Positions 20,886-44,506 of a DNA stretch of 64,000 bases are shown piece after piece; within the stretch, counting starts at the first letter, position 1; each line of letters opens with the position of its first letter. Below the pieces are notes generated by a model. That model saw only the letters and a list, made by a program, of their open reading frames with translations, was not told the DNA's origin and did no database searches. This DNA comes from an uncultured Acidobacteriota bacterium (GTDB taxonomy: Bacteria; Acidobacteriota; JAAYUB01): the NCBI GenBank assembly GCA_964436005.1, contig CAYTBK010000005.1:3041-67040 (forward strand), given 5' to 3'. The translations under genes and the position numbers were made by a program.

Positions 20886-21590
20886 ATGGGCAAGGTGAAA
20901 ACCATTGTATTGATAATAGGAATATTGTCTTGTCTGGGCAGTGCGGCCATGGCCAGGGAGTTGCCCAATTGGGTGGTCCGGGCGGAGTATCCCGTGCCCA
21001 CGGCGGCGGCGGACCGGTGGGCCGTGGTGGACTGGCTGTACCGGGTGACGGAAATCCGGGTGATCGACGGGGAAGAATGGTGGGCTGTCACGGTGGACAG
21101 CGTGCGGGGGAATGCCGTTTCCTCCGGTTCTTTTCTCTTCCAGCCGGAAACGAGGGTGGTCAGGAATGCCTGCTGCCTGACGAAGCGAAACGGTGTGGAC
21201 ATGGAGGTCGATCTGGATAGCATCCAGGGGGAAGGCGTCTCTCTGCACCCGTACAGCCCTTTCCCTCTGGATCAGGCGGTTTCGCCTTCCCTAGCCGCGG
21301 GCCGGTTGGCCGCCCGTTCGTCCGGGGGCAGCGGTTGGTCTTTCCAGGCTGAATTCACGGTCCGCCAGGGGACCGCCGAGGAGTTGTCCTCCTCCCCCCT
21401 GGCCGCGAAGGCCCGCCAGTCGGCGGGGGAAGTGTCGACTTTCGTGGTGGAAGGTCAAAAGGGGAGTATCTTGTCTGGCCGGCGCACCCTTCAATACGGA
21501 AGCCGGTTCCCCTGGTGGATCTGTTGCGAAACTTCGTCTTGCCGGTCGGTAATGGTAGAATTTCAAGGAGTTGTCTTGAAAGATGAATAG
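20886..21590 (+). CDS. hypothetical secreted protein
   Basis: SD gagggagg; signal peptide MGKVKTIVLIIGILSCLGSAAMA; overlaps the next gene by 8 nt. Confidence 0.5.
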   Translation: MGKVKTIVLIIGILSCLGSAAMARELPNWVVRAEYPVPTAAADRWAVVDWLYRVTEIRVIDGEEWWAVTVDSVRGNAVSSGSFLFQPETRVVRNACCLTKRNGVDMEVDLDSIQGEGVSLHPYSPFPLDQAVSPSLAAGRLAARSSGGSGWSFQAEFTVRQGTAEELSSSPLAAKARQSAGEVSTFVVEGQKGSILSGRRTLQYGSRFPWWICCETSSCRSVMVEFQGVVLKDE

Positions 21591-24168
21591 AGCTTTTCTA
21601 CTGTTCACAGCGGTGCTGGCGGCCGTACTGTCGAACGCTCCCGTCTTGGCGGACGGCTCGGAGGAATACTACGCCACAAAAGCGGCCTGGAGCTCTTTCT
21701 GGTTTCCGTATATCGACGGCACCCTGGTGACGGGGAAAGCTTCCTCGGGCACGGTGGGCGGAGGCTACTACTACACGGACTGGGAAGGCGGCTTTGCTCC
21801 GCTGGAGAAACTGGGGGCCGCCTTCGGGCTGGATCCCCGTGGCGAGGCCTTCCAGTGGGAAAGCGAGCACCATTACGACACGGAAGCGGAGGAATGGTAC
21901 GGGCACTGCAACGGATTCGCGGCGGCCAGCTGCGTCGAGGCGGCCCCCACGGCCCCCGGCCAGGTGGGAGACGTGTATTTCCGGGTGGGAGACAAGAAGG
22001 CCCTTCTGTGCGAATCCCACCAGGGGGACGGGGCCCTGTTGACCGGCAGCCGCTTCACCGGTGCGGAGGGGGAGGATTCGCAGGACATCTACCCGAATGT
22101 CTTCCACGCCGTTCTGCAGCGGAACATCAAAACACTGGGCGTTCCGTTCGTGGTCGAGGTCGATCCGGGAATCCAGATATGGAACTTTCCCTGCTACGGG
22201 TACAGCTCGACCTGGATCGACGATGGGGATGTGCGCCACGTGACGACGAAAGTATACCTGGCCAGCGATGTCGTCCGCCCCGACGTCACGGAAATCAAGA
22301 AAAAAACCGCCACCTACACCTACGACCTGAAGATGAGCGGCGAAACCGTGCTTTCCGGGACCTGGACAGGAAAGTCGGTGTACGACCATCCTGATTTCGT
22401 GTGGGAGGTCATCACCATCGAGAGCGCCAACCCGTATCTAACCATAGACGATGCTCGCAACGTGGCCTCCTCCACCCTGGCGGGCAGCGTGACGGACGAT
22501 TCCTGGGAGCCCAACAACAGCCGCCAGGAGGCCGAGCCCATGAACTACGACGTCCTGTTCGCGCGGTTGCTGGATGATGATTGGTTCGGCATTCCCGTGG
22601 AAGCCGGGGAAAAGGTGAGCGCGACCGTCATGACCCAGAAAATCGACAACCAGTTGTCGGTTTCGCTGGAAGACGCCCAGGGAAACCCGTTGGCCGCTTC
22701 CCAGAGCGGGAAGGGGCCGTTCACCCTGTCGAGCGACGTCGTCGAGAACAGCGGGAACGCCTATCTGCACCTCGATCCCGTTACTCCGCAGACCGTTTTC
22801 CGGAACTATGAGATCGAAGTCGGCCGAACCGGTTGCCAGGCGGTCATGCCCCACGTGGCCAACTCCTGCCAGTGGTCTTCGGAGCTGTTTCTGCTGAACC
22901 CGAACGCGACGTCGGTCAGGGTATTCAACCATTTTTACGATGCTTCCGTATCTCCGGTCCGGCACGTGTCGTATGACGGCGGAATCGGGACCATGCCCGG
23001 GAAGGCCCTGATCCGGGGCTATCTCGAAACGCTGTTCAACGATTTCGGGGAGGACTGCCAACGCTGGATGCGGTTGCGCTCCCTCGAAAATATCGACGGG
23101 TTCTGCCTGTTTCGGGCGGACGGCGGAAAAAACCTTACGGCGGTGCGGCTGCAGAGTCCTGTGTCCACCAATTTGAATTTCAACAGTTTGGCCTACGACA
23201 GCACCTGGTGGACAGGCGTGGGCATCGTCAACCCCGATTACCGGCACACGACGAAGGTGCAGATCAAGCCGATCCGGGCGAGCGGTTCCGTCAATACCCA
23301 GGCGGTCAAGGAAGTCGTCCTGGAACCGAGCGGGAGAGTCCTGGCCATGCTGAACGAGTATTTCGACCTCGATGTGCTGGCGGAAACGAACTGGATCCGC
23401 ATCGAAGCCGACCGTCCCATCGCCGGTTTTGAAGTCTTCGGAACGCAGAATTTCGAGATGTGCGAGGGACTGCCGCTGCAGGATGACGGCGCAGCGGAAT
23501 CGTACGCGGCCTGGCTGCCGCCGCCGACCGACGGGTGGTGGTCGGGCATCACGCTCGTCAATCCGAGCTCCGATACGGTCAGCGTCAAGGTCTACCCGTT
23601 CAACGTCAATGGGATCTACCTGCTGAACCCGCCCTACTACACCGAAGTGCCTTTGGGGAGAAGGGGCAAGTCCGCTTTGATGATGGAGCAGCTGCTCCCC
23701 GGCGGGAAGCGCGAACAGTTGGCCTACCTGAAGATCGCCGTTCCGGAGGACCGAAAGGTGACGGGCTTCGTCATGAACGGTAATTTCCAATCGGGAATCA
23801 TGTGCGGGTATCCGCTGACGAAGGCATCCGAAATGCAGACGCAGGGAACCATCTGCGCCGTGGATGGGTTGACGGTGATCTTCAACAACGTGAAAAGCGG
23901 GAACAGCGACAAGAAGGTGACGATCCGGTTCCTGGACACTCAGGGAAACGCCCTGGGGGAGGAACGTGAGATGGCGTTGCCTCGCTACGTTGTCAAGCGG
24001 GCGACCCCGGAGGAGCTGTATCAGGGCACTCCCCCGGAAGGGTGGGCGAGGCTGGTCTGGAAATGCGACTCTCCCCTCATCGTGATGGGCGAGGTCATTC
24101 AGGACGACAAGGGCACGTACATTCCTTCCCTGGTCGAGGAGCCGGCGGAGGGCGCCGTCACCCGATGA
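21583..24168 (+). CDS. large secreted protein: transglutaminase-like Cys motif, PPC-like domain, three copies of a shared C-terminal module
   Basis: Signal peptide; YGHCNGFAAAS (compare the transglutaminase motif YGQCWVFAA); EPNNS PPC-like motif; three repeats ending ...IAGFEVFG. Confidence 0.75.
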   Translation: MNRAFLLFTAVLAAVLSNAPVLADGSEEYYATKAAWSSFWFPYIDGTLVTGKASSGTVGGGYYYTDWEGGFAPLEKLGAAFGLDPRGEAFQWESEHHYDTEAEEWYGHCNGFAAASCVEAAPTAPGQVGDVYFRVGDKKALLCESHQGDGALLTGSRFTGAEGEDSQDIYPNVFHAVLQRNIKTLGVPFVVEVDPGIQIWNFPCYGYSSTWIDDGDVRHVTTKVYLASDVVRPDVTEIKKKTATYTYDLKMSGETVLSGTWTGKSVYDHPDFVWEVITIESANPYLTIDDARNVASSTLAGSVTDDSWEPNNSRQEAEPMNYDVLFARLLDDDWFGIPVEAGEKVSATVMTQKIDNQLSVSLEDAQGNPLAASQSGKGPFTLSSDVVENSGNAYLHLDPVTPQTVFRNYEIEVGRTGCQAVMPHVANSCQWSSELFLLNPNATSVRVFNHFYDASVSPVRHVSYDGGIGTMPGKALIRGYLETLFNDFGEDCQRWMRLRSLENIDGFCLFRADGGKNLTAVRLQSPVSTNLNFNSLAYDSTWWTGVGIVNPDYRHTTKVQIKPIRASGSVNTQAVKEVVLEPSGRVLAMLNEYFDLDVLAETNWIRIEADRPIAGFEVFGTQNFEMCEGLPLQDDGAAESYAAWLPPPTDGWWSGITLVNPSSDTVSVKVYPFNVNGIYLLNPPYYTEVPLGRRGKSALMMEQLLPGGKREQLAYLKIAVPEDRKVTGFVMNGNFQSGIMCGYPLTKASEMQTQGTICAVDGLTVIFNNVKSGNSDKKVTIRFLDTQGNALGEEREMALPRYVVKRATPEELYQGTPPEGWARLVWKCDSPLIVMGEVIQDDKGTYIPSLVEEPAEGAVTR

Positions 24169-24266
24169 ATATGGAACGGCATGTCCTGGATTGGTGACGT
24201 GCGCCACTGTCGGGCGCATATACAGATTGGTATACTAATAAGTCAGATAAAGAAGGGAGGTCTATC

Positions 24267-27200
24267 ATGAAAAGCAAGGGGTGGGGTGTGAAGGGGGGGG
24301 TGTTCCTGATCCTATTGATGTTGACAGGCGGGGGCCTGTTCGCCGTGGAGCCGATCAACTCCTTTTCGGTCATTTATTTCGCCGATGTCAACAACGACAG
24401 CCTGCAGGACCTGCTCATCAGCAACAACCGCACGATCAGGGCCTACCTGAACCGGGGGACCGCCAGCGCGCCTTCCTATGGCTCGGCGGATTACGATCTG
24501 CCGATGGACGCCAACGCCTACCGGGTCATCGGCTCTTTCGCCGACATTTTTTACAGCGGCAAGATGGACGTCTTCTTCGGCGCCGAGGCCGGGGGAATCG
24601 GCCGCATCGCCAATACGGGGACGGCCTCCAACCCCGTCTGGACCACGGTCCGCAACACGGGGCTGCGAACCAATTCCTTCCTGGGCATCACCCACGACCC
24701 CTTCATCGAAACCGTCCTGTTCCACGACTTCGACAGCGACGGCGACCTGGACCTGATCTTTACGGACCCGTATTCTTTCCTCACCTACTATGTCAACCAG
24801 GATCGCGAATCCGACGGATGGGTGGATGGAAAGTGGAGCGGCACGACGACGCCTTCCTTCACCGTGCTGGTCAGCTGGTCCCCCCTCGTCGGCTGCGGCG
24901 CCACGTCCGCCAAGCCCGCCCTGTTGGACTGGACGGCCGACGGCCTGTTCGACCTGTATGCCGGTGACAACTTCAGCGGAGGAGTTCGTTCGTATGTCAA
25001 TTCAGGAACACTCACCAGACCTTCCTTGACCAGTGCTGGAATTGTTCTCACCGACGTTGTCACCGGGCTGTACCCGACCTGCGCCTTCCGCGATTTCACC
25101 GGCGACGGCTTCCTGGACTTGTACTACGGGAACGCCGCCGGGGCTTTCACCCTGGTCAGCTCCGTGAACCGAAGTTCCACCGATGTGGACGTCCTCCCTC
25201 CCCCCATGCCGGTCAGCGGGCTGACGAAAGACTCTCTGGAGGCGGGCGGCCTGACCCTGAAATGGCCCTTCGTGAACGACGCCGCCGTCACCAGCGGGTC
25301 CAAATACCGTTCCGGAGTCTACTCCTATGCCTTGTACCGCGACGACACGGGCGATTCCGATTTCACCCCGTCGCAGAACAATCTTCTGTGGAAGCACTAC
25401 CAATGGCATTACAGCCCCGACTACGCCCCGGAATTCGCCGACGGGGACGGCTTCAAGATCGTTAACAACTACTTCTACTACCACGACGCGGGGCTTTCGG
25501 GCGGGAATACATACTGCTACAAGCTCGTGGTGACGGACGCTGCCGGCAATTCCGTCACGACCGATGCCGTCTGCCAGACTTTCGACCCGCCCTACTTCGA
25601 TTCCGTCAGCGTGCAGGTTTCGCCGCTCGTGACCACGAACGCGTTTCTCCTGTCGTTCTCCACGCTGGACCAGTATGCCAACCTGTACCCCATCGAGCCC
25701 AACGGTACGGAGCCCAACATCTCGGTTCAGGTGTACAAGGGCACCCCGCCGGCTCCCTCCGGAGAAACGCTCGTGGACGCCGTTTCGAGCGAACCCGTCG
25801 CCTCCATGACATTCGACGGAACGTCCAACTACACGGGGACGGTGACCATCGCCGACAGTTCGTGCGAGCAGTTCTACGTTCACGTGACCGCCGTGCACAA
25901 CGCGACCACCGCCTTGATTACCAAGGAGAAACTGTCCTCTCAGGTGATCATCGACCGGGCCGCTCCCCCGATGCCGACCCTGACGGGAACCCCGCAGGGA
26001 TACTCCAGCATCGTGTTCAGCTGGACCCCCGTCACCGACAACTGTTCGTTGATCGCGCGGTACCGGCTTTTCATCAAGGGGCCCACCGACACGGCGTATT
26101 CGCAGCAGTATTCCGGTACGTTGACGAGCTACACGAAAACGGTGCTGCCCTGCCAGAGCTACCGGGCCTATGTCACCGCCGTGGACACGGCCGGGAACGA
26201 AACCGTCGTGGCCTCGCCGGATGCAGTGGCCGGCACCTACGCCGCGCTGCCCGATACCACGGCCCCCAACAACCCTACCGGCCTGACGGGAACGTATTAT
26301 AGCAGCGACACCAAGATACAGCTGAACTGGAACGACGTGGCGGATTCTCAGAGCGGCCTGTACCGCTACGAAATCCAGAAGCACCTGACCGGCGCCGAGT
26401 ACGCATTCCTTTGCTACGTCACCTATTCCGAGCATTCGGACAACCAGACCAATCCGGGAACGCCGGTGTACTACCGGGTCCGCGCCATCGACAAGTGCAA
26501 CAACGCGTCCGGATGGACGGAAGTGTCCGTAACCAAAATCGTCGACACCACCGCCCCGACGGTGCCGACCGGGCTTGCCGGCAGCGCCCTGAGCCCCTCC
26601 TCCATCGGACTGACCTGGAACGCATCCACCGACAGCGGCAGCGGCGTGCGCGGGTACAACATCTACCTGAACTCCAGTTCGACTCCTTTTGTGGAGGCCC
26701 CGACCAATTCCTACACCCATACGGGCCTGACCGCGAACACATCCTATACCTACCAGGTGGCGGCCGTCGACAATGTCGGAAACGTTTCGGCCAAGACTTC
26801 CGCGATTTCGGTGCGGACGCTTCCTTCCACTTCGGAAAAGCCGAATCCGCCCACCGATTTGCGGACTTCGCTGGTCGAGGCTTCGCGCGTGACGCTCCGC
26901 TGGACCGCCCCGACCGCCAGGGTGCCCGTCAGTTCCTACCGGGTATACCGCCACGCCAGCGCCACCTCGGCGGACTCCAGCGGCGTCCTGGTCGGGTCGT
27001 CGACCACAACGGAGTATACCGTTACCGGCCTGACGGCAGCGACGACCTATTATTACACCGTGAAATCCGTCAGTTCCACGAGCGTGGAGTCGAATCCGTC
27101 CAACCGCCTGGCCGTGACTACGGCCTCCGTGGCCACTCCGACGGTGCCCCAGAACTTCCGGGTCACCGATATCGGCAGCAACACGGTGGACCTGGCCTGG

Positions 27201-29642
27201 AGCGCTTCGACTCCTTCCGCCGGGGTGGTCTACTCTATCTGCATCGGCCGGGACACGCTCTTCGGACCGGCCTGCATCCAGACTGCCGTCACCACCACGA
27301 ACCTAAGCATCCAGATCACCGGCCTTTCGCCCAGCCATGAGTACATTTTCCTGATTTCGGCCCAGCTCCCGGGCGGGGTTTCCTCGGACTTCAACAAGCT
27401 GGAAACGACCACCCTGGTAGCCGACACGACTCCGCCTTCCGCACCCACGAACCTGACCGGCGTCGCCCTGAGCAAAACGTCGATCCAGCTGACCTGGACG
27501 GCATCCTCGGACGGCGAAGGTTCCGGAATCGACCATTACCGGATCTACCGCAATGGCGCGTATTACCTCAACGTCACGGATACCACCTTCACCGACCTGG
27601 GGCTGCAGGCCGGCACGACATATTCGTATGGTGTCGAGGCCGTCGACAACGCCGATCTCATTTCGGACCGGGCGACGGTGGACGTGACCACCTTGTCGGA
27701 CGACACCACCGGGCCGTCTACGCCCGGGAACTTTACGGCGGTCGTGCTGACCGGCTCCAGCGTCGCTTTGTCCTGGGGCGCCTCCACGGACAATGAAGGG
27801 GGGTCCGGCCTGGACGGGTACGAAATCTACCGCAACGGCGTGCTCCTGATCCAGGTGGAGGGCCTGAGCCATGTGGACACGGGCCTGACCAGCGGGACGG
27901 ACTACTCCTACTATGTCATGGCGATCGATGAGATGGACAACCGCTCGCCCGCCAGCAACACCGTCACCGTACGGCCGCAGGACCTGCACGTCCTCTACGT
28001 GGGGCACGTCTGCGAATCGGACCTCTGGTTCAGCCGGCTCACCATCGTCAACGTGGGGGCGACCGACAATCCCATCGATGTCTACGCCTACAACCACGAT
28101 GGCACCCAGTTGGAAAAGGTCACCCTGCCGTCGCTGCCCACGCACGCCAAGTTCGAATCCGATCTGGCCACCCTGTTCAGTCCCGCGGTTTTCCAGGCCG
28201 GCAACGATGTCTGGCTCAAGATCGAAAGCGTGTCGGAAATCCAGGGCGTGGCGAGCTTCGGCACCAAGGACAACCAGGGCATGACGGCCTTGCCCCTGTT
28301 CGGGGTTTCGGCCACCGACCTGGTCTTCCCCTACGTGTACATCGACAATATCTGGATGACCGGCCTCACCGTCATCAACACCGGGCAGGAAACGGCCGGC
28401 GTGACCTTCCGGGCCTTCTCCGAAATCGGCGAACTCCTCTCCACCGTCAACGCGGAATTGCCCGTGAACAACAAGTCCGCGAAGCTGATCGACCAGCTGT
28501 TCCCGGAAGTCGAAAACCCCTCCCGCATCCGCTTCGTGAAGGCGGATTCCACCCAGCCGCTGATCGGCTTCGAGGCCTTCGGCTCCCTGGCCCAGCCGGG
28601 CTGGTCCAGCTTGCCCTGCTTCTCCCTCTCCAAGGACCTGTTCAAGTTCTCCTCTTCCGACCAGGGCGAGCAAGGCCGGGAAGCGATCGTCCAGGCCATT
28701 CCTTCCACGCCGACCGGGCTGACCGCCCAGGCGGTGTCGAGCGACAAGGTTCTCCTGTCCTGGAACAAGAATCCGGAAGAGGACATCGACCACTACGAAG
28801 TGCTCAACAACGACAGCTTCATGGCCGTGCTCGTCGGAACCGCGTCCGGCACTTCCTATACCGTCTCCGGCCTGACGGCCGAATCGACCCACAAGTACTC
28901 CATCAAAGCGGTCAACACGTCTGCGCAGACTTCCGAAGCGACGGCCCAGGTTTCCGTGGTCACGCTGCCGACGGGCCAGGTGGCCTACCCGTACAAGGCG
29001 TATTTCAACGAAATCCCTGATCCGAGCTTCTACGGTCTGGGCGTGACTTTCTCCAACATCGGGACGGACGTTACCGAAATGAAACTGGACCTGTACAACA
29101 AGGAAGGCGTCCGGATCGGGGAAAAGCTGGTCCCCTCCGTGGCGCCCAACGCCCAGGTCTCGTACGAAATCCGTTACTTCTTCGACAACGTTTTGCCGGA
29201 GGGGGCCGCCTACATGACCATCGGCAGCCTCCAGCCCGTGCTCGGCTTCGAGATCTTCCTCACCGCCGACACCAATGCGCATCCGTTCCAGATGGAAGGG
29301 ATCAACATCGTCAAGAAAGGCGTCCACCGGATGAATTTCCCCATGCTGATCAACACGGCGGACTGGACTTCCATCTGCAAGCTGACGAACACGGAAACGG
29401 CGGAAGCCTCCGTCACCGTGACGGGGTACGGCCAGGATGGGGTGTCCAAGGGCGATGTCGTCCTGACGATTCCCGCCCTGGGCAAGGTGGAGCGTTCCCT
29501 CGCCGAGCTCTTCCCTTCCATTACCGATCTGGCCTGGTTCACCGTTTACAGTGAAAAGGAGCTGATCGGAGACATGTTCATCGTCTCCGCGGACGCGACC
29601 CGGCTGATCTCTTACCTGGGAATGGCTCAAGATACGGAGTGA
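24267..29642 (+). CDS. giant secreted protein: FG-GAP repeats, ~10 fibronectin type III domains, C-terminal shared modules
   Basis: SD aagggagg; signal peptide; FTGDGFLDLYYGN/FDSDGDLDLIFTD FG-GAP; repeated Fn3 (LTWNASTDSGSGVRGYNIY...); C-terminal modules ending LIGFEAFG / VLGFEIF. Confidence 0.85.
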   Translation: MKSKGWGVKGGVFLILLMLTGGGLFAVEPINSFSVIYFADVNNDSLQDLLISNNRTIRAYLNRGTASAPSYGSADYDLPMDANAYRVIGSFADIFYSGKMDVFFGAEAGGIGRIANTGTASNPVWTTVRNTGLRTNSFLGITHDPFIETVLFHDFDSDGDLDLIFTDPYSFLTYYVNQDRESDGWVDGKWSGTTTPSFTVLVSWSPLVGCGATSAKPALLDWTADGLFDLYAGDNFSGGVRSYVNSGTLTRPSLTSAGIVLTDVVTGLYPTCAFRDFTGDGFLDLYYGNAAGAFTLVSSVNRSSTDVDVLPPPMPVSGLTKDSLEAGGLTLKWPFVNDAAVTSGSKYRSGVYSYALYRDDTGDSDFTPSQNNLLWKHYQWHYSPDYAPEFADGDGFKIVNNYFYYHDAGLSGGNTYCYKLVVTDAAGNSVTTDAVCQTFDPPYFDSVSVQVSPLVTTNAFLLSFSTLDQYANLYPIEPNGTEPNISVQVYKGTPPAPSGETLVDAVSSEPVASMTFDGTSNYTGTVTIADSSCEQFYVHVTAVHNATTALITKEKLSSQVIIDRAAPPMPTLTGTPQGYSSIVFSWTPVTDNCSLIARYRLFIKGPTDTAYSQQYSGTLTSYTKTVLPCQSYRAYVTAVDTAGNETVVASPDAVAGTYAALPDTTAPNNPTGLTGTYYSSDTKIQLNWNDVADSQSGLYRYEIQKHLTGAEYAFLCYVTYSEHSDNQTNPGTPVYYRVRAIDKCNNASGWTEVSVTKIVDTTAPTVPTGLAGSALSPSSIGLTWNASTDSGSGVRGYNIYLNSSSTPFVEAPTNSYTHTGLTANTSYTYQVAAVDNVGNVSAKTSAISVRTLPSTSEKPNPPTDLRTSLVEASRVTLRWTAPTARVPVSSYRVYRHASATSADSSGVLVGSSTTTEYTVTGLTAATTYYYTVKSVSSTSVESNPSNRLAVTTASVATPTVPQNFRVTDIGSNTVDLAWSASTPSAGVVYSICIGRDTLFGPACIQTAVTTTNLSIQITGLSPSHEYIFLISAQLPGGVSSDFNKLETTTLVADTTPPSAPTNLTGVALSKTSIQLTWTASSDGEGSGIDHYRIYRNGAYYLNVTDTTFTDLGLQAGTTYSYGVEAVDNADLISDRATVDVTTLSDDTTGPSTPGNFTAVVLTGSSVALSWGASTDNEGGSGLDGYEIYRNGVLLIQVEGLSHVDTGLTSGTDYSYYVMAIDEMDNRSPASNTVTVRPQDLHVLYVGHVCESDLWFSRLTIVNVGATDNPIDVYAYNHDGTQLEKVTLPSLPTHAKFESDLATLFSPAVFQAGNDVWLKIESVSEIQGVASFGTKDNQGMTALPLFGVSATDLVFPYVYIDNIWMTGLTVINTGQETAGVTFRAFSEIGELLSTVNAELPVNNKSAKLIDQLFPEVENPSRIRFVKADSTQPLIGFEAFGSLAQPGWSSLPCFSLSKDLFKFSSSDQGEQGREAIVQAIPSTPTGLTAQAVSSDKVLLSWNKNPEEDIDHYEVLNNDSFMAVLVGTASGTSYTVSGLTAESTHKYSIKAVNTSAQTSEATAQVSVVTLPTGQVAYPYKAYFNEIPDPSFYGLGVTFSNIGTDVTEMKLDLYNKEGVRIGEKLVPSVAPNAQVSYEIRYFFDNVLPEGAAYMTIGSLQPVLGFEIFLTADTNAHPFQMEGINIVKKGVHRMNFPMLINTADWTSICKLTNTETAEASVTVTGYGQDGVSKGDVVLTIPALGKVERSLAELFPSITDLAWFTVYSEKELIGDMFIVSADATRLISYLGMAQDTE

Positions 29643-29667
29643 TTTCTCCGTCCGAGCGTCGAGGAGA

Positions 29668-29688
29668 GGGGCGCCCTGCGGGGCGCCC
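29668..29688. terminator. bidirectional hairpin between convergent genes
   Basis: gggcgcc/ggcgccc 7-bp stem with a 5-nt loop. Confidence 0.4.
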
Positions 29689-29691
29689 TTC

Positions 29692-31577: not shown

Positions 31578-31609
31578 CCACCTGGCCGGCGGCGAACATG
31601 GGGTCGGGC

Positions 31610-33855: not shown

Positions 33856-34593
33856 ATGTACCATCCTTTGAAACCGTCTGCTTGGGCGGCGGTTAGAGGG
33901 CAATGGGTAATGAAGCACACCCGGGATAAAGACGTCGTTCGACACTGCACTGAAACCCTCCGCAACGGCCCGATTCAGGAAGCCTACGCACTTCTTCCCC
34001 ATTTGAGCGTTTGCAAGGAAAACAGGATTCTGCCTGTGGTGTTGGAACTGCTTTTTTCGGGCGACCGGGAGAGGGAGGAATTCGCGGCCTGCGCCATCGC
34101 CGCCCTGTGCGATTCGTCCTGCCTGGAGAGCTTGCTGCGGAAACTGGAAGACGGGACCATCTACAGCGGGCCGGGCAGCCAGCGGCTGCAGATGGCGGTC
34201 CTGGAGGCCATCGGGGAACTGGGGGAGGATTCTGCGTCGGACAGCTTGCTGGCGCTCTTCCACCGCCGGATTCCGCGGGACAACTTCCGCCGGAAACGGC
34301 TCATCGTCGTCCAGGACGCGTTGGGGGCCATCGCCATGCAGGGCGGGGTGCGTGCCCTGGAGATCCTCACGGGTTTCCTCTCCCACGAGGACTACCTGGT
34401 CCGCGCCAATAGCATCACGAATATTTCAAATGCTTTCTGGCATCGTCCGAACGAAATGCCGCAGGAACTCTTCGATGCGCTGCTGGCCATGTTCAAGGAT
34501 CACAACCTTTACGTCCAGCACTCCCTGATCTCGGCCCTGGAGAACCTGGCAGACGTCGGCTGCCAGATGGCAGCCGACATCTTCGCCTCCTGA
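33856..34593 (+). CDS. HEAT/PBS-lyase-like repeat protein
   Basis: Repeated helical hairpins (VLELLFSGDRE...AACAIAALCD); start uncertain (alternative ATG at 33910). Confidence 0.55.
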   Translation: MYHPLKPSAWAAVRGQWVMKHTRDKDVVRHCTETLRNGPIQEAYALLPHLSVCKENRILPVVLELLFSGDREREEFAACAIAALCDSSCLESLLRKLEDGTIYSGPGSQRLQMAVLEAIGELGEDSASDSLLALFHRRIPRDNFRRKRLIVVQDALGAIAMQGGVRALEILTGFLSHEDYLVRANSITNISNAFWHRPNEMPQELFDALLAMFKDHNLYVQHSLISALENLADVGCQMAADIFAS

Positions 34594-35607: not shown

Positions 35608-35682
35608 TGTATCCTCCTTGAATATGGCCAGTGCGACGCCGCTTCTGGACGCGTGTTGCAGCCGGCGAAACAAAAAATTATA

Positions 35683-36384
35683 TCAGACCGTCCTTACCGT
35701 TAGAACCCTCTTTTTGTAAGGGATCGGATCATCGATCCCCGCTTCGGCAAACCCTCGCAGCCTGAGGGCGCAACTGTCGCAGTCTCCGCAGGCCTCGTCG
35801 CCTGCGCGGTAGCAGGACCAGGTGAGGTGCAGCGGAGTTCCCAAACGGACACCTGTCCGGACGATTTCCGCCTTGGTCATGTGGATGACCGGGGCGACGA
35901 CCCGGATCCTGGTTGCCGGCGCCGTTCCAGCGTCCACCGCTCCTTGAAAGGCGTCGAGGAAGGCCTGGCTGCAGTCCGGGTAGCCGGACGAATCCTCCGC
36001 CACCGCCCCGATGACCACCGCCTCTGCCCTGGTGGCCTCCGCCCAGCTCACCGCGGCGGCCAGCAGGTTCGCGTTGCGGAAGGGCACATAGGTCCCCGGC
36101 AGGGTTTTTCGGTGCAGATCGGGCGTTTCGATGCTCCGGCTGCGGTCGGTCATGGAAGACCCGCCGATGGCCGCGATGTGCCCCATGTCGATCACCAGGC
36201 GCTCGCTGGCCCCGAAATGGTCGGCCAGGGCGTGAAAACAGGCCAGTTCCTTCTCTTCCGTCCTTTGCCGGTAGTTCGCGTGCAGGAACAGGAGTTCCCG
36301 GCACCACTCGCGAGCGATGGAGGCGCACACGGCGCTGTCCATCCCTCCGCTGACGACGACCACGGCTTTTTCGCAGGCGATCAT
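35683..36384 (-). CDS. queC: 7-cyano-7-deazaguanine synthase QueC
   Basis: VVVVSGGMDSAV PP-loop; C-terminal CxxCxxC zinc motif. Confidence 0.9.
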   Translation of the reverse strand: MIACEKAVVVVSGGMDSAVCASIAREWCRELLFLHANYRQRTEEKELACFHALADHFGASERLVIDMGHIAAIGGSSMTDRSRSIETPDLHRKTLPGTYVPFRNANLLAAAVSWAEATRAEAVVIGAVAEDSSGYPDCSQAFLDAFQGAVDAGTAPATRIRVVAPVIHMTKAEIVRTGVRLGTPLHLTWSCYRAGDEACGDCDSCALRLRGFAEAGIDDPIPYKKRVLTVRTV

Positions 36385-36755
36385 GACTCCTTCTCCCGAT
36401 AGGTGGCGGACATGCCGGGGGTTTCGAAGACTGTTACGGAAAGCAGCCGGCAGGGTGCCGGGATGGCGGCCCCGAGCTCCCGGAAAATGAAGGCGGCCAG
36501 GTTCTCCGCCGACGGGTTGGCTTCGCGGAACGGCTCCAGTTCGTTCAGCACCTGGTGGTCGAGTCGGTCCAGCACTTTTCGGGCCTCCGCGTTGACGTCG
36601 CAGAAGTCCATGGCCAGTCCGCAGTCGTCCAACCGGTCGCTTCCCAGGCGCACTTCCACGATCCAGTTGTGCCCGTGCATGCGCTCGCAGCGGCCCCGGT
36701 AGTTGCGCAGCTGGTGGGCGGCGGAAAATTCGAGGCGGACCATCAATTCCCACAT
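36381..36755 (-). CDS. queD: 6-carboxy-5,6,7,8-tetrahydropterin synthase QueD
   Basis: EFSAAHQL...CERMHGHN motif; ATGA overlap with queC. Confidence 0.9.
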   Translation of the reverse strand: MWELMVRLEFSAAHQLRNYRGRCERMHGHNWIVEVRLGSDRLDDCGLAMDFCDVNAEARKVLDRLDHQVLNELEPFREANPSAENLAAFIFRELGAAIPAPCRLLSVTVFETPGMSATYREKES

Positions 36756-36811
36756 AGTCGTTTCCCCCGTTACGGTCTCTGCCCGATAGATGTCACGATC
36801 GATGAAATGTT

Positions 36812-37426
36812 TCAGGGGTTCGGGGGCGGTTCGTAGACCAGGCGTTTATGGGAGTCCCAGAGATCCCCCGAGGGATTCATCCGATAAGTGGGGAACAAGG
36901 GATCATCCGGAACGGCCGATATTTCGAAAGACGCTTCGTCCCTTTCTCCATTGCATTTGCAGGAAAAAGTATAGCCATTGATATGGACGTCCGTCGAGGC
37001 GAAGCGGGCATCCAGCAGGCCGGCGGCAGCCAGTTCCCGAAAGCTTCCGTAACGGGCGTTGTCCATGAGGAATGTACCCTGGGCCGACCGGATCGTGGTG
37101 AAGACATCCGTGACGTTGGGAACCGGTTTGACAGTGGGCAGCGCGTATCCCGTCATCGGGGTGCTGTATTCCACGGCTTTTTCCTTCGGGGGAAGCGCCC
37201 CCTGGTCTTCTTTCGCCATATCGCCCGTCCGCACCTTCTCCCCGGTGGCGGTCAGCATCCAGATCAGCAGGAAAAGGAGCAACAAGCCGGCGAATGCCGC
37301 CCCGTAGCGGAATTTCCAGTCTGCCAACCATTCCCGCTTGATCCGGAAAACGCTCTTCCAGGCCTTGTTTCCGAACACACGATCCTCCGGTGTCTGCCAT
37401 CGTTTGCAAATTGCAATTGTAAACAT
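36812..37426 (-). CDS. hypothetical single-pass membrane protein
   Basis: Forms the 3' end of a 2600-aa antisense shadow ORF, but has protein-like composition and one TM helix (AAFAGLLLLFLLIWMLTA); no clear SD. Confidence 0.5.
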   Translation of the reverse strand: MFTIAICKRWQTPEDRVFGNKAWKSVFRIKREWLADWKFRYGAAFAGLLLLFLLIWMLTATGEKVRTGDMAKEDQGALPPKEKAVEYSTPMTGYALPTVKPVPNVTDVFTTIRSAQGTFLMDNARYGSFRELAAAGLLDARFASTDVHINGYTFSCKCNGERDEASFEISAVPDDPLFPTYRMNPSGDLWDSHKRLVYEPPPNP

Positions 37427-37663
37427 CTGCCCTGCCGGAATCAAGTGGGAAGCAAGGTCGGGGCGGGTGCGGCTTTCCAGCGGGGTGCACGCCGTTTCGC
37501 GGCGTTTTCCGGAGGGGGCCCCGGGCGGGCGTTCACCGGGCCAGGCGTGCCCGCGGCCGTTACAACTTTGGCAAGTCCCGGTATTTCGGAAAGTGAAAAA
37601 CGGGCGGTTCGGGGTAAAATCAGAGGAAAACACCGGTATGAATCTGTCCTGGGGAGGTTGCCG

Positions 37664-40600
37664 ATGCGAAAGGGAAGTGCGGGGGGGCGGCTGGGGGCCG
37701 CTGCCGTTTGGACACTGTTGGTCGGGTGCCTGCTCGCGGTCCATTCCGTTCCGCTGCGAGCCGGGTACTACACGTATTCCTGGGGCAGCAATGCCTACGG
37801 CCAGCTGGGAGATCCGGCCGCCGGGACGGTGCAGCTCTCCCCCTACTTCATTTCCGCCCTGGGGGACAGCTATCTGACCGTGCACGCCGGCAACGGCTTT
37901 TCCGTTGCGCTCCTGTCCGAAGGGATGGTGAAGGCCTGGGGGAAAAACAACCAGGGCCAACTGGGGAACGGGACCATGGGCACCGACATGCCCTACCCGG
38001 TGGCCGTCTCGGGCCTGACTGACGTGAAGGCGCTTTCGGCAGGAGACTCCCATGTGCTCGCGGTCCGTTTCGACCGGACGGTCTGGACCTGGGGCGCCAA
38101 CACGAGCGGCCAACTGGGCGACGGGACCAGCGCCAGCCGGGATGTCCCCTCCATGGTCGGGCAACTGGCGGGCGTGGTGGCTGTCGCTGCCGGCGGCGGG
38201 CATTCCCTGGCCCTCCGGGACGACGGAACGGTCTGGGCCTGGGGCGGAAACAGCCAGGGGCAACTGGGGATTGGCGACACCAGGAACCGGTGGACGCCCG
38301 TTCAGGTTCCGGGTCTGACCGGCGTGGCTGTCATCGCCTGCGGAAAGGACCACTCGCTCGCCCTGAAATGCGACGGCACGGTCTGGGCCTGGGGAAGCAA
38401 TGACAAGGGCCAGCTCGGGATCGGTTCTTCGGCGTCGTATGTCGCTTCGCCTGCGCAGGTCAGGACGCTGGGCGCGGACGAGGCCAGCAAGGCGATGGCC
38501 CTGGCCGCGGGGGCCAGGCACTCGGTGGCCGTGGCGGCGGACGGCACGGCCTGGGCCTGGGGTTGGAACGCCTACGGCCAGTTGGGCAACGGGGGGACCA
38601 GCGACGCCAGTTCCCCGGTCCGCTGCAAGTTGGCGGACGGAGGCGAGACCGTGGCCGTGGCCGGCGGATCCGGTCATACCCTGGCGATCCGGACCAACAC
38701 GGGCGAAGCCAACTTCAACATCGTCTGGGCCTGGGGGCGGAACCGGGAAGGGCAGCTCGGGGTCAGTTCGCTCCAGGACAAGATCGACCCGGTTTCCACG
38801 GGCCTCGGGCAGGTGTCGAGCCTGTCCGCAGGGTACAACCACTCTCTGGCCCAGGCCAGCATGGTCGCCACGGCCCCTGCCATCCTCTTCCCGCCGCTGG
38901 GTGGCGACGTTCTGCGGGGAAGCTCGGCCACGCTGACCGTGGGCGCCTCGGGCAAGCCGAGGCTGCAGTTCCAGTGGTACCGGGGCCCCCAGTACTGCAC
39001 GACCGATCCGGTCGCGGGAGCAGTCTACCCGACGTTCGTCACGCCTCCCGTCACGGCGGAGGTTTCCTACTGGGTGAAAATCCAGTGCGAGGACGGATAC
39101 GTGTGCAGCACGGCGGCGGTCCTCACGCCGGTGGAGGGCCCCACCATCACCCGGCAGCCGAATTCCCCCGCCGGCTGTTTCGGGCAGAGCGTGTCGATTT
39201 CCCTGTCGGCGTCGGGGACGCGTCCCCTGAAATACCATTGGTACGAGGGGGAAAGGGGAGACACCAGCAAGCCGGTGGGTTCCAACAGCGAGGCCTATTC
39301 GCTCGTCATCGAGGAGACGAAGAAATTCTGGGTCAGGGTGACCAACGACTACGGGCAGGCGGACAGCGAGACGGCGACCGTGACCCTGCGGCAGGCGGTG
39401 GGAATCCTCTCGCATCCCTCCCCCACTTCCGTCTATGCCGGGGAGAGCGCCAGCCTGGTCGTCGTGCCCGTCGGCGACGGCGTGACCGGCCAGTGGTACC
39501 GCGGCGCTTCCGGCGACACTTCCGCTCCCGTCGGTACCGGCTTGACGCTGAACACCGGCCCACTGACGGCTTCCGCCGACTTCTGGGCCCGCCTGACCAA
39601 CCCATGCGGGGTGGCCGACAGCCGGGCGGCGAGAGTGACCGTGCTCACGGGCGGTCCGGTCGCGCCCGGCGATGTCCGGGCCGTCAACACGTCGTCCACG
39701 GCGGTTCTCCTGACCTGGTTCAGCGGAAACGCGGCTACGGCCCAGATCGAAATCCAGCGGAAAACCGGTGCGGGCGGGACGTTCGCCCACGTCGCCACCG
39801 TCCGCGGCGACCTGACTTCCTGGAGCGAGGACGGCCTGGTTTCCAACGAGACGTACTGCTACCGCCTCCGGGCCGTCCATGTCGGGGTCGCCTCGGCCTG
39901 GTCCAACGAGGCGTGCGCCTGGTTGCAGACCTGCGCGGTCCCGCAGGCGAAAACCGCCGGCGCCCAGGTGCTCGGCGCCAGTTCGGCCGTCCTGCGAGGT
40001 TCGGTGGTTTCGACGCAATGCGGAGCGACGGCCTGGTTCGAGTACGGGCCGACTTTGGAGTACGGTTCCTTCAGCAACCGGATCAGCGTCGGACAGGGAC
40101 CCGGGGAAACCCGGTTCTCCACCCAGCTCGACGGCCTGCAGAACGGTTCGGTCTACCATTTCCGGGCCGCGGCCCAGAATGAAGCCGGCACCGTCTACGG
40201 CGAGGACATGGTGCTGGAAATCCATGTGGGCACCTGGGTGGTCGGGACGCTGGACGACCCGGCCGCCGGGAAGACGGGCGACGCGCTCTCCCTGCGCGAG
40301 GCCCTCGCCCTGGCCGAAGCCGCGGCCGGTTCCGACCAGCAGATCGTCACCTTCGACCAGAGCCTGCCGGCTCCCCGCATCGTGCGGCTGAACGGCCCGC
40401 TGCCTCCCTTCCAGCGGGGGAATGTCACGCTGGAGGGCACCATGCCCGGCAGCAACGGCGGGCCCGGCACCATTCTCGTCACCTGGGCCGACGGGGCGAA
40501 CGTCAACCGGGAGAACGCTTTCTTCTCCATCCTCTCCCCCGGCAACGTTTTGGCCGACCTGACCATCGGCGGGAGCAACGGCGACGGCATCCGGATCCTG

Positions 40601-43600
40601 GGCTCCCGGGCCGTGGACAACACGGTGCGCGGGTGCCGGCTCGGCTTCGACGCGGAGTCGCGGCTCGCCCCGTCCGCGCTGGGGCTGAACAACGGCATCA
40701 TCGTGGAACAGGGCGCGTCGAGAAACCACATCGGCATGGATTCCGCCCCCCTCGGGCGGAAGATGCTGCCCGGAGAAGGGGCTCCCGCCGGCAACCTCAT
40801 CGCCAACTGCCGGGAAAACGGCGTGTGGATCCGAGACGACAAGACGACGGGCAACGTCCTGAATTGCAACCTGATCGGTTCGACGGACCAGTCCCTTGCG
40901 CCCGGCAACGGCAACGGGGTGAGCATCGCCTGGTCTCCCGCCAACTGCGTGGGCGGCGCCAGCGAGTACGCCGGCAACCTCATCGCGGGCAACGTCCTCA
41001 ACGGAGTGCTGGTGACCGGCGAGGCGGCCACGGGGAACCGCATCACCCGCAACTGCATCTACGGCAACGGCATGCTGGGCATCGACCTGAGCCACCTGGA
41101 CGGCGTGGGCGACGGTCCGGAAGCCGATCTCGCGCAGTGCAAGCGGCGCGGGCCGAACCACTTCATGCCCGCTCCGGCCATCGAGCGCTACGGGTATCGG
41201 GAAGGGGACGGCGCCGGCCTGTTCACCGTCTGGGGCAAGACCCTCCCGTTCGCCCGCGTGGAAGCCTACCAGGCGGAGCGGGACCCGTCCGGCTTCGGCG
41301 AGGGGCGGCTGTTCCTGGGGAACGCCGAGGCGGATGCCACCGGCGCCTTCGCCGTGACCTTCCCCCTGGCCGTGGGCCAGGCCGTGACGCTGCTGGCGGA
41401 AGCGGAAGGGGACTCCTCGGAGTTTTCCTCCTGTTTCGTCATGAACGCCGTGAGCGACGACCGCAGCGTCGACGACATCCGCAACGTCGAGAACATGCTC
41501 CTCTTCGCCGTGGGCGTGCCACGCCAGTGCGAGATCCTCTTCGGGCGCTCCCAGGAGGAGGGGGTGACCCTGAAGACCAGCCTGACCATGAATGGGGAAG
41601 CTCCCGTCACCGATACCGTCACGCTCAAGGCGCTCCGCAGCCTGGTGGCCTTCCCCATGACGGTGCCGACGGCGGGCACGGGCTGGCTGGACCTGGAACT
41701 GGCCGGCTCCGGGAGGGAAACCTCCCAGGCCAGGCTGCTCGTGTACGCCGACGACGCGGAGGCCGTCGAGCCGGGGGCGGACCTTTCCCTGACCCGCACC
41801 CTGGACGGCCCCACGCCCTTCCGGCTGTTCAAGGTGTCGGGGCAGGCCGGGCAGATCCTGGACGTGCAGGTCTCGAGCGCCGACGCTTCCGACCCGGCGG
41901 TGTACCCCTGCCTGAAGATCTTCGGGACGCGCGCCTCCTACCTGAACGTCAACAGCCGCAACGACGAGAGCACCCACGCCTTCGCCCAGGTCCGGCTGCC
42001 GGAGTCGGGGGACTTCTTCATCGCCGTGTCGGACCTGTACCTGCGGCAGGGAAGCGCCATGAGCTTCGTCCTGAAAGCCGTTCTGAACGACAATCCGGAC
42101 CCGGTGGAGGAATCGTTCGGGGTCCGGGACCCCCTCGCCATGCCCGGACGGCCCGGCCGCATCGCCGTGGGCGACCTGGACGGCGACGGCTGGCCCGACA
42201 TGGTCTCCACCCTGCCGTCCGCCCGGGCGCTGGCGGTTTCCTACAAGATCCCGGGGGAAACGGCCGGTTTCGCCTCCCCTGTACAAGTGAATCTGGATTA
42301 TGAGCCCTCCGACGTCACCCTCGAGGACGTCGACGGGAACGGCCGGCTGGACATCCTCGTCGCCGACGCCGCGGGCGGCGGGGTGCACGTCCTCTACAAC
42401 CCCGGGCGCGTCAGCGAGGCCAGCGGGGCCAGGCTGACCCGCGCGGGCCGGTTCTTCCGGGCCAGGGCGGCCGGCGGCGACGTGGGCGGCGGGGGCGACT
42501 TCAACGTGGACGGCTTTGCCGACTACGCGCTGCTCTCCTCCAGCGGCGGGACCCTCCAGGTGTTCCTGAACGACAAGACGGGGCTGCTGGTCGCCGGCCA
42601 GGTCATTTCGGCCGGCCCGTCTCCCCGCGGCATGGCCGTGGACGATTTCGACGTGGACGGTGCGCCCGACATCGCCGTGGCCGTTGCGGGAGACAACGAG
42701 GTGCCCGTGTTCCAGGGCGCGGGGGACGGCAACTTTTCCCTGGCGCGCACGCTCACCGGCTGCAGCACGCCGGTGGACGTCAAGTCCGGCGACCTCAACC
42801 TGGACGGGCTGCCCGACCTGCTCATCCTGAACCAGGGCGCCGCCCAGTTCCAGGGCTTCCTGGGGGTGGGTTCGCTCGAGTTCTCCTACCAGCAGGCGCA
42901 GTCCACCGGCGCCGTCCCCAACTCCATGGCCGTGAGCGACCTGAACGTGGACGGCTACAAGGACGTCTCCGTGGCCTGCACGGGCGACGGCAAGATCTAC
43001 GTGTACATGGGGTCCTCCTCCGGCCTCTTCCTCCCCCAGGCCGTCCTGACGAACTCCGGCGACATCAGTTCGCTGGTCTACTACACCACCGGCAACGGGG
43101 CGACCTATTTCGGCGTGCCCCCGGACGACGAGTTCGTGTCCGTGCTGCAGAGCGAGTACCTGGTCATCGATTTCCCCTGCGCCGAGACCGGCGGCGCCTT
43201 CGATTCCGCCTTCGCCCTGGCCAACCCCTCCGCGGAGGACGCCCTGGTGTATCTGTCGCTGGTGGGGCCGGACGGCAAGCTGGTGGTCGATCCCACGGTC
43301 AGCGACCCCGTGGCGGTCACCCTCAAGGCGCACCAGCAGATGTCCTTCTACGCCCAGGGTTTCTTCGGGGACGGGGCCGCGAACTACGCGGCCTGGATGC
43401 GGGTTTCCACCCAGAACCAGGCGGTGAACGGCTTCACCATCCAGGTCCTGACCGGCAGCACCCTGGCCATGGACGGAGCCGGGGGGCAGACCACGGCCAG
43501 CCCGAGGCTCTTCCTCCCGGTCCCGGGCGCTCTTGGCGCGGCGGCGGTCGGGCAGTACAGCGTCACCAACCCCGGCGAGTCCGCCACGGGCGTCACGGTG

Positions 43601-44506
43601 ACCTGCCGGAAAGCCGACGGAACGGTCACGGGCGGCACCTATTCCTTCACGCTGGCGGCCGGCGGGCGCCATTCGTTCGCCTACGCCAGTTGCTTCGCCG
43701 ACGCGGAGGACGCCCTTTCCCTGGAAATCGTGGCCGGCGCGCCCGTGGAATGCCAGTACCTGACCATGGTGTCCGACGTGATGGAGGCGGTCCTGCCGGG
43801 CCTGCCGGTGGACGAGACGGCCACTGGCACGGCGACCCTCTATCTTCCCCACTTCGCCGAGGGAACCATCTTCCGTTCCACCATCGAGCTCTTCAACCCC
43901 GCCGCCGCGGCCGCCGCCGTAACGGTGAGCGCCTGTTCCGACGACGGGTCGCCCCTCGGCGCCACCGCCTCGCTGTCCATTCCGGCCGGAGGCGCCCTGC
44001 GATCCTCCATCGCCGACCTGACCGGCCTCGACCCCGCCTCGGCGGCCGTCATCCAGGGCTTCCTGAAGGTGGAGTCCAGTCAGGCCGGGCTGCTGGGCTG
44101 CGTCACCTTCATGGACCGGGCGGGGGCGGTCATGGCCTCTTCCCTGCCGCTCCAGTCCAAGGTGGGGAACCGTTTCCTCTTCTCGCACCTGGCCGTGGGC
44201 ACCATCGGCGGCATTCCGTACTTCACGGGCATCGCCGTGCTCAACACCGGAGCGGCGGACGTCACGGCCCACTTCACCGTCTACGACATGCTCGGCAACA
44301 AGACGGGCGAAGCCGACGCGCTCATCCCCGCCGGCCGGAAGGTGAGCCGGATGCTCACCGATTTCGTGGGCGGCCTGCCGGCCCAGAACGGCGGGTACGT
44401 GACCCTGACGGCGCCGGAGGGTTCCTCCCTCATGAGCTTCGAGATCTTCGGTGACGATGACCTGACCTTCCTCTCCGCCGTCCCGGCGCAGACCCTGGCC
44501 GAGTGA
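37664..44506 (+). CDS. giant secreted multidomain protein: RCC1 repeats, Ig-like/Fn3 domains, right-handed beta-helix, PPC-like domain, FG-GAP propeller, C-terminal shared modules
   Basis: SD ggggagg; signal peptide; WGxNxxGQLG x7; beta-helix repeats; DLDGDGWPDMVS/DVDGNGRLDILV FG-GAP; C-terminal module ...LMSFEIFGDDD. Confidence 0.85.
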   Translation: MRKGSAGGRLGAAAVWTLLVGCLLAVHSVPLRAGYYTYSWGSNAYGQLGDPAAGTVQLSPYFISALGDSYLTVHAGNGFSVALLSEGMVKAWGKNNQGQLGNGTMGTDMPYPVAVSGLTDVKALSAGDSHVLAVRFDRTVWTWGANTSGQLGDGTSASRDVPSMVGQLAGVVAVAAGGGHSLALRDDGTVWAWGGNSQGQLGIGDTRNRWTPVQVPGLTGVAVIACGKDHSLALKCDGTVWAWGSNDKGQLGIGSSASYVASPAQVRTLGADEASKAMALAAGARHSVAVAADGTAWAWGWNAYGQLGNGGTSDASSPVRCKLADGGETVAVAGGSGHTLAIRTNTGEANFNIVWAWGRNREGQLGVSSLQDKIDPVSTGLGQVSSLSAGYNHSLAQASMVATAPAILFPPLGGDVLRGSSATLTVGASGKPRLQFQWYRGPQYCTTDPVAGAVYPTFVTPPVTAEVSYWVKIQCEDGYVCSTAAVLTPVEGPTITRQPNSPAGCFGQSVSISLSASGTRPLKYHWYEGERGDTSKPVGSNSEAYSLVIEETKKFWVRVTNDYGQADSETATVTLRQAVGILSHPSPTSVYAGESASLVVVPVGDGVTGQWYRGASGDTSAPVGTGLTLNTGPLTASADFWARLTNPCGVADSRAARVTVLTGGPVAPGDVRAVNTSSTAVLLTWFSGNAATAQIEIQRKTGAGGTFAHVATVRGDLTSWSEDGLVSNETYCYRLRAVHVGVASAWSNEACAWLQTCAVPQAKTAGAQVLGASSAVLRGSVVSTQCGATAWFEYGPTLEYGSFSNRISVGQGPGETRFSTQLDGLQNGSVYHFRAAAQNEAGTVYGEDMVLEIHVGTWVVGTLDDPAAGKTGDALSLREALALAEAAAGSDQQIVTFDQSLPAPRIVRLNGPLPPFQRGNVTLEGTMPGSNGGPGTILVTWADGANVNRENAFFSILSPGNVLADLTIGGSNGDGIRILGSRAVDNTVRGCRLGFDAESRLAPSALGLNNGIIVEQGASRNHIGMDSAPLGRKMLPGEGAPAGNLIANCRENGVWIRDDKTTGNVLNCNLIGSTDQSLAPGNGNGVSIAWSPANCVGGASEYAGNLIAGNVLNGVLVTGEAATGNRITRNCIYGNGMLGIDLSHLDGVGDGPEADLAQCKRRGPNHFMPAPAIERYGYREGDGAGLFTVWGKTLPFARVEAYQAERDPSGFGEGRLFLGNAEADATGAFAVTFPLAVGQAVTLLAEAEGDSSEFSSCFVMNAVSDDRSVDDIRNVENMLLFAVGVPRQCEILFGRSQEEGVTLKTSLTMNGEAPVTDTVTLKALRSLVAFPMTVPTAGTGWLDLELAGSGRETSQARLLVYADDAEAVEPGADLSLTRTLDGPTPFRLFKVSGQAGQILDVQVSSADASDPAVYPCLKIFGTRASYLNVNSRNDESTHAFAQVRLPESGDFFIAVSDLYLRQGSAMSFVLKAVLNDNPDPVEESFGVRDPLAMPGRPGRIAVGDLDGDGWPDMVSTLPSARALAVSYKIPGETAGFASPVQVNLDYEPSDVTLEDVDGNGRLDILVADAAGGGVHVLYNPGRVSEASGARLTRAGRFFRARAAGGDVGGGGDFNVDGFADYALLSSSGGTLQVFLNDKTGLLVAGQVISAGPSPRGMAVDDFDVDGAPDIAVAVAGDNEVPVFQGAGDGNFSLARTLTGCSTPVDVKSGDLNLDGLPDLLILNQGAAQFQGFLGVGSLEFSYQQAQSTGAVPNSMAVSDLNVDGYKDVSVACTGDGKIYVYMGSSSGLFLPQAVLTNSGDISSLVYYTTGNGATYFGVPPDDEFVSVLQSEYLVIDFPCAETGGAFDSAFALANPSAEDALVYLSLVGPDGKLVVDPTVSDPVAVTLKAHQQMSFYAQGFFGDGAANYAAWMRVSTQNQAVNGFTIQVLTGSTLAMDGAGGQTTASPRLFLPVPGALGAAAVGQYSVTNPGESATGVTVTCRKADGTVTGGTYSFTLAAGGRHSFAYASCFADAEDALSLEIVAGAPVECQYLTMVSDVMEAVLPGLPVDETATGTATLYLPHFAEGTIFRSTIELFNPAAAAAAVTVSACSDDGSPLGATASLSIPAGGALRSSIADLTGLDPASAAVIQGFLKVESSQAGLLGCVTFMDRAGAVMASSLPLQSKVGNRFLFSHLAVGTIGGIPYFTGIAVLNTGAADVTAHFTVYDMLGNKTGEADALIPAGRKVSRMLTDFVGGLPAQNGGYVTLTAPEGSSLMSFEIFGDDDLTFLSAVPAQTLAE

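What the first reader, a model, noticed from the sequence alone, without database searches (positions are those of the whole stretch)
21583..44506. Unrecognised ~100-aa module repeated 2-4 times at the C-termini of three different giant secreted proteins
Protein 21583-24168 (module region ~22836-24168), protein 24267-29642 (~27990-29642) and protein 37664-44506 (~43150-44506) all end with tandem copies of a module. The shared pattern is: h-(F/M)P-x-V/A ... W-(S/T)-(G/E)-h-x-h-h-N-P ... hYD/FxA.G ... hLxxLF ... W-h-R/K-h-E/S ... h-x-G-F-E-h-F-G. Examples: WWTGVGIVNPDY...WIRIEADRPIAGFEVFG; IWMTGLTVINTGQE...RIRFVKADSTQPLIGFEAFG; AFALANPSAEDA...YVTLTAPEGSSLMSFEIFGDD. I do not recognise this module as any named domain. 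The same module is attached to very different N-terminal architectures (transglutaminase-like; FG-GAP + Fn3 x10; RCC1 + beta-helix + FG-GAP). That suggests a common anchoring or ligand-binding function, for example a cell-surface or S-layer attachment module or a cargo tag for a dedicated secretion route.
Basis: seen in the sequence. Interest (0 to 1): 0.7.

Follow-up and report, generated by a model that had tools for sequence, protein, structure and literature searches.

The report
ASRT-like sugar-binding domain tetrads
The "unrecognised" repeat ending three giant secreted proteins is a known but poorly annotated fold (ASRT/TM1070-like, or ASRAH), always present as a fixed block of four that probably forms one compact ligand-binding unit, most likely sticking the proteins to a polysaccharide.

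Summary
All three proteins end with the same ~105-aa module, and each has exactly four copies, not 2-4. In protein A the fourth copy is divergent. In protein B the copies are arranged as 2 + Fn3 + 2.

An HMM built only from 568 modules of other proteins finds all 12 window copies (domain E 3e-5 to 5e-28) and nothing else in the window.

This is the ASRAH superfamily of De Souza, Iyer and Aravind (2009). They predicted sugar binding and had already noted secreted "tetrads" that mimic the ASRT homotetramer.

New here:
- The scale: 12,706 clusters at 50% identity, and 144 of the best 150 have exactly four copies.
- The dyad-insert-dyad rule.
- The variety of fusion partners, in Acidobacteriota and Thermodesulfobacteriota.

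The function (polysaccharide binding or anchoring) is inferred, not shown. A secretion-tag role is unlikely. This is a new member of a known kind, of moderate interest.

The parts
21583..24168 (+). Gene A, 861 aa. It has a signal peptide (MNRAFLLFTAVLAAVLSNAPVLA/DG), an N-terminal transglutaminase-elicitor-like domain, and a C-terminal ASRAH tetrad.
   Evidence: ORF and translation. PF16683 E 4e-15. An identical gene was called on a Logan contig. The ortholog P0017 is from an Acidobacteria MAG.
22828..23163 (+). Module A1 (ASRAH domain 1 of protein A)
   Evidence: Independent HMM, domain E 6e-14. Its best hit elsewhere is module 1 of P0017.
23164..23490 (+). Module A2
   Evidence: Independent HMM, domain E 4e-25.
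23491..23832 (+). Module A3
   Evidence: Independent HMM, domain E 1e-16.
23833..24165 (+). Module A4, a divergent fourth ASRAH domain
24267..29642 (+). Gene B, 1791 aa. It has a signal peptide, FG-GAP repeats, multiple Fn3 domains, and a C-terminal ASRAH tetrad split 2+2.
   Evidence: It equals P0001 in the representative library. An ortholog lies directly after the A ortholog in L005.
27981..28307 (+). Module B1
   Evidence: Independent HMM, domain E 2e-24.
28308..28634 (+). Module B2
   Evidence: Independent HMM, domain E 5e-28.
28635..28979 (+). Fn3 domain inserted between the first dyad (B1-B2) and the second dyad (B3-B4)
   Evidence: PF00041 E 1.5e-9. Among relatives, inserts longer than 30 aa occur only at this junction: 18 of 144 between modules 2 and 3, none between 1-2 or 3-4.
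28980..29315 (+). Module B3
   Evidence: Independent HMM, domain E 8e-18.
29316..29639 (+). Module B4
   Evidence: Independent HMM, domain E 6e-19. Weak DUF5719 hit, E 4.7e-4.
37664..44506 (+). Gene C, 2280 aa. It has a signal peptide or possible lipobox (LLVGC), an RCC1 propeller, Ig_7/Ig/Fn3 domains, an unassigned central region, FG-GAP repeats, and a C-terminal ASRAH tetrad.
   Evidence: The start at 37664 matches the 2280-aa library entry P0002.
43136..43483 (+). Module C1
   Evidence: Independent HMM, domain E 7e-15. Part of the AF2 tetrad model.
43484..43825 (+). Module C2 (the most divergent of the C copies)
   Evidence: Independent HMM, domain E 3.6e-9. Confidently folded in the tetrad model.
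43826..44164 (+). Module C3
   Evidence: Independent HMM, domain E 7e-25.
44165..44503 (+). Module C4
   Evidence: Independent HMM, domain E 2e-24. This is the region that aligns to the ASRT sequence over the Asn motif.
20817..21590 (+). Small secreted or lipoprotein-like ORF. It overlaps the start of A by 8 nt and forms a possible three-gene cassette with A and B.
   Evidence: Translation shows a signal peptide. No Pfam or NCBIfam hit. A homolog (26% identity, E 3e-10) lies upstream of the A ortholog in L005.
44517..45890 (+). FadL/PorV-superfamily outer-membrane protein, 10 nt downstream of C. It is a context gene, not shown to be functionally linked.
   Evidence: PF03349 E 5e-14. Only a sub-threshold match to PorV/PorQ over its N-terminal 36 aa (38 bits against a cutoff of 90). 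A 61%-identical gene follows the C ortholog P0014. It is absent next to the distant homolog in L002.

Best explanation
Each of the three proteins ends in a fixed block of four ASRAH domains. [quoted passage not shown]

The stand-alone members of that superfamily are homotetramers, and their ligand clefts are walled partly by the dimer interface. Here the four subunits are fused into one chain. The chain is organised as two dyads (1+2 and 3+4) that pack into one compact pseudo-tetramer of about 430 aa.

I infer that this unit is a multivalent binder of a carbohydrate or other small or polymeric ligand. It would be carried at the C-terminus of Sec-exported enzymes and adhesin-like proteins. Its role would be to hold or target them on a polysaccharide: either the cell's own envelope or exopolysaccharide, or a substrate.

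Shown: homology, fold, the fixed count of four, the dyad rule, the wide distribution and the varied fusion partners. Inferred: the pseudo-tetramer geometry, the ligand class and the anchoring role.
For: Fold:
- The AF2 model of the C tetrad has pLDDT 91 and pTM 0.90, which indicates fixed packing between domains.
- In Foldseek, the only hits with probability 1.00 are 1nc7 and 2ii8, with TM 0.73-0.78.

Sequence chain:
- The C tetrad hits Pfam DUF5719 at 28.4 bits, above the gathering score of 26.2.
- The tetrad profile hits P0154 at E 4e-12.
- P0154 scores 62 bits on DUF5719 and 29.7 bits on Pfam ASRT (gathering score 25) at residues 273-352. The window-only module HMM hits the same stretch, 275-351.
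- The profile search against PDB sequences aligns ASRT over the Asn motif, but at E 0.14, which is weak on its own.

Hallmark residues: Asn at the end of strand 2 is present in 95% of 580 modules, and Gly in 98%. This Asn is the near-invariant residue described in PMC2739507.

Fixed tetrad:
- 144 of the best 150 relatives have exactly four copies.
- All 13 module-bearing ORFs in the loci I fetched have four.
- The best match of module i in another protein is module i in about 94% of cases.
- Inserts longer than 30 aa occur only between modules 2 and 3.

Literature: TM1070 is a tetramer whose cleft is walled by the dimer interface. Secreted ASRAH families occur as dyads or tetrads. Sugar binding was predicted from gene context (PMC2739507).

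Fusion partners are extracytoplasmic enzymes and binding repeats: TGase-like, phosphodiesterases, alpha/beta hydrolase+LamG, M6 protease-like, LRR, RHS, rhodanese, PLD and LTD. By a crude test, 101 of 133 complete relatives have a signal-peptide-like N-terminus.
Against: - No ligand has been shown experimentally for any ASRAH domain in what I read. Sugar binding is a 2009 prediction. A later paper title and abstract start returned by my search concern DNA looping by ASRT (PMC8660804, listed; paper not read).
- The ligand-contacting His and Cys of the ASRT-like family (SHEshChhN) are replaced here by W-x-T-G-h-x-h-h-N. The ligand may therefore be different.
- I could not inspect model coordinates. 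The match to the TM1070 tetramer geometry rests on the pTM value, the fixed count and the insert rule.
- Direct sequence significance against ASRT is weak (E 0.14). The link rests on structure predictions and a transitive chain.
- No glycan-synthesis gene is consistently next to tetrad genes.
Confidence: 0.6

Rival explanations
1. The tetrad is a C-terminal sorting or secretion signal, that is a cargo tag. A dedicated outer-membrane component would recognise it, for example the adjacent FadL/PorV-superfamily protein, by analogy with type IX secretion C-terminal domains and PorV.
For: - 112 of 144 tetrads end the protein with a tail of 10 residues or fewer.
- Several tetrad genes occur per genome, often close together.
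- A FadL-like outer-membrane gene follows C after 10 nt and also follows its ortholog P0014.
- That protein has a weak match to the PorV/PorQ family over its N-terminus.
Against: - The block is about 430 aa of four ligand-binding-type domains, far larger than known sorting tags.
- 31 of 144 tetrads are followed by 90 to more than 1000 further residues, and some sit right after the signal peptide.
- A, B and unrelated tetrad proteins have no FadL-like neighbour. A distant C homolog has none either.
- The PorV match is 38 bits against a cutoff of 90 and covers only 36 aa.
- No type IX C-terminal domain or other sorting-domain model hits the tetrad.
Confidence: 0.08
2. The tetrad is a protein-protein interaction or scaffold unit with no carbohydrate ligand. 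It might oligomerise the giant proteins or dock them on another surface protein.
For: - According to the introduction of PMC2739507, ASRT was shown to interact physically with the sensory rhodopsin. A later paper title and abstract start concern DNA looping by ASRT (PMC8660804; paper not read).
- The sugar-contact residues of the ASRT-like family are not conserved here.
- A conserved small secreted ORF sits upstream of A and of its ortholog.
Against: - All four module positions keep the same conserved strand-1/2 motif (FPH...W-x-T-G...N). That suggests four equivalent small pockets rather than one docking face.
- The fusion partners resemble those of CBM-type targeting modules.
Confidence: 0.2
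3. The similarity is compositional or due to chance. There would be no real shared module.
For: Pairwise identity between copies is only 16-25%.
Against: - An independent HMM finds all 12 copies (E down to 5e-28) and no other ORF in the window below E 0.1.
- 12,706 cluster representatives match.
- The structure models are confident and consistent.
Confidence: 0.01

Closest known systems
ASRAH superfamily, amidase-associated secreted family (Roseiflexus, Chloroflexus, Herpetosiphon; De Souza, Iyer & Aravind 2009, PMC2739507)
   Same: Both are secreted proteins that carry four tandem ASRAH domains (tetrads) next to an unrelated catalytic domain. Both are proposed to form an intramolecular counterpart of the ASRT tetramer and to bind a carbohydrate.
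   Different: According to the paper, that family is always fused to an N-acetylmuramoyl-L-alanine amidase and is found mainly in Chloroflexi. The window proteins and the relatives I examined carry many other partners and come from Acidobacteriota and Thermodesulfobacteriota.
TM1070 (PDB 1NC7) and Anabaena sensory rhodopsin transducer (PDB 2II7/2II8); Pfam ASRT PF07100
   Different: Those are stand-alone cytoplasmic proteins of about 115-125 aa that form homotetramers. Their strand-2 signature is SHEshChhN, with ligand-contacting His and Cys. Here four non-identical domains are fused in one exported chain, and the signature is W-x-T-G-h-x-h-h-N. No window module reaches the PF07100 threshold.
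Pfam DUF5719 (PF18986), probably the actinobacterial ASRAH lipoprotein family
   Same: This is the only Pfam model that touches the modules. The C tetrad scores 28.4 bits against a gathering score of 26.2, and B4 scores E 4.7e-4. Some relatives score similarly.
   Different: The matches cover only profile positions ~55-212 of 319. A and B do not reach the threshold. The 2009 paper describes the actinobacterial family as dyads with their own N- and C-terminal extensions and a lipobox, linked to WhiB and a glycosyltransferase. None of that applies here. Equating DUF5719 with that family is my inference.
Carbohydrate-binding modules of beta-sandwich type (for example CBM4, CBM32 and a Ruminococcus flavefaciens CBM, 5AOT)
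   Different: The strand topology differs: the 2009 paper describes CBM4 as circularly permuted relative to ASRAH, with the pocket on the opposite face. There is no sequence relationship. CBMs act as single domains, not as obligate tetrads.

Membership tests
ASRAH (ASRT/TM1070-like) superfamily | Eight-stranded beta-sandwich with the TM1070/ASRT topology | tested here: met
ASRAH (ASRT/TM1070-like) superfamily | Nearly invariant Asn at the end of strand 2 that stabilises the tight turn | tested here: met
   Asn is present in 95% of 580 modules. By reading, it is present in all 12 window modules. It aligns with the Asn of ASRT (ILNAG).
ASRAH (ASRT/TM1070-like) superfamily | Conserved Trp at the start of strand 1 | tested here: inconclusive
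   This family has Y/F in L-Y-F-P-H on strand 1 and its conserved Trp at the start of strand 2. Equivalence to W7 of TM1070 could not be checked without coordinates.
ASRAH (ASRT/TM1070-like) superfamily | Statistically supported sequence link to ASRT | tested here: met
   The link is transitive. The tetrad profile hits P0154 at E 4e-12. P0154 hits Pfam ASRT at 29.7 bits (gathering score 25) and DUF5719 at 62 bits over the same stretch. The direct profile-to-ASRT match is only E 0.14.
ASRAH (ASRT/TM1070-like) superfamily | Occurs as a homotetramer, a dyad or a tetrad | tested here: met
   There are exactly four copies in A, B and C, in 144 of 150 relatives and in 13 of 13 ORFs in the fetched loci. 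The dyad substructure is shown by the insert positions.
ASRAH (ASRT/TM1070-like) superfamily | Binds a sugar or other small molecule in a cleft at the dimer interface | not testable with these tools
   This is only a prediction in PMC2739507. It needs binding assays or a structure with ligand.
Pfam ASRT (PF07100), stand-alone ASRT-like family | Single-domain cytoplasmic protein with the SHEshChhN signature that reaches the Pfam threshold | tested here: not met
   No window module hits PF07100 even at E<=10. The signature is W-x-T-G-h-x-h-h-N. The proteins have signal peptides and many domains.
Pfam DUF5719 (PF18986) | Full-length match above the gathering score | tested here: inconclusive
   The C tetrad scores 28.4 bits against 26.2, but only over positions 55-212 of 319. 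The A tetrad has no hit. The B dyads score at best E 4.7e-4, below threshold.
Type IX secretion C-terminal domain or other C-terminal sorting domains | Match to a sorting-domain model, with the cognate machinery nearby | tested here: not met
   No such Pfam or NCBIfam hit. The neighbouring FadL-like protein is far below the PorV cutoffs.

The most novel reading that the evidence does not exclude
The ASRAH tetrad could be the general cell-surface anchoring module of Acidobacteriota and some other diderm phyla. It would be a four-pocket pseudo-tetrameric lectin that ties a large, varied set of exported enzymes and adhesins to one specific envelope or exopolysaccharide glycan. That role would be comparable to SLH domains binding secondary cell-wall polymers in monoderms. 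With 12,706 clusters at 50% identity, it would be one of the larger surface-display systems still lacking any experimental characterisation.
Probability: 0.25. Interest if true: 0.6.

Novelty: new member of a known kind. Interest (0 to 1): 0.4.

Why it matters
It gives a name, a fold and a testable function to a module found in thousands of uncharacterised environmental proteins. Current Pfam and NCBIfam models miss it or catch it only marginally as DUF5719.

The fixed four-copy, two-dyad design is a clear case of a homo-oligomer fused into a single chain. It suggests simple experiments: glycan binding by a recombinant tetrad, and localisation of the proteins with and without it.

If the anchoring reading holds, it would explain how Acidobacteriota retain giant extracellular enzymes and adhesins. 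That bears on soil and sediment polymer turnover. If it does not hold, the finding remains a useful annotation fix.

Tried and rejected
- **Word-indexed protein search with the 12-module alignment:** no hits. With the 21-tetrad alignment it gave only 6 hits, because 8000 candidates saturated the search. The exhaustive representative search was what worked.
- **Profile search against PDB sequences:** only non-significant hits. ASRT appeared at E 1 and at E 0.14. These served as a lead, not as proof.
- **The search for related loci with the diverse tetrad alignment:** failed because there was no conserved stretch to search with. With the C-type alignment it found a single genome locus, L002.
- **afdb50 fold library:** not available.
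- **Exact look-up of protein B's contig:** failed, so the window's source record was not identified. The Acidobacteriota assignment rests on orthologs.
- **Literature:** no paper in the held library mentions DUF5719. ASRAH, as a protein domain, appears only in the 2009 paper. A fungal lectin paper that mentions TM1070 reports only a weak, generic resemblance, so I set it aside.
- **Considered and rejected:** macroglobulin MG-domain relatives (bMG3 E 0.15; high-rmsd Foldseek hits), a PorV-type cargo system and compositional similarity.
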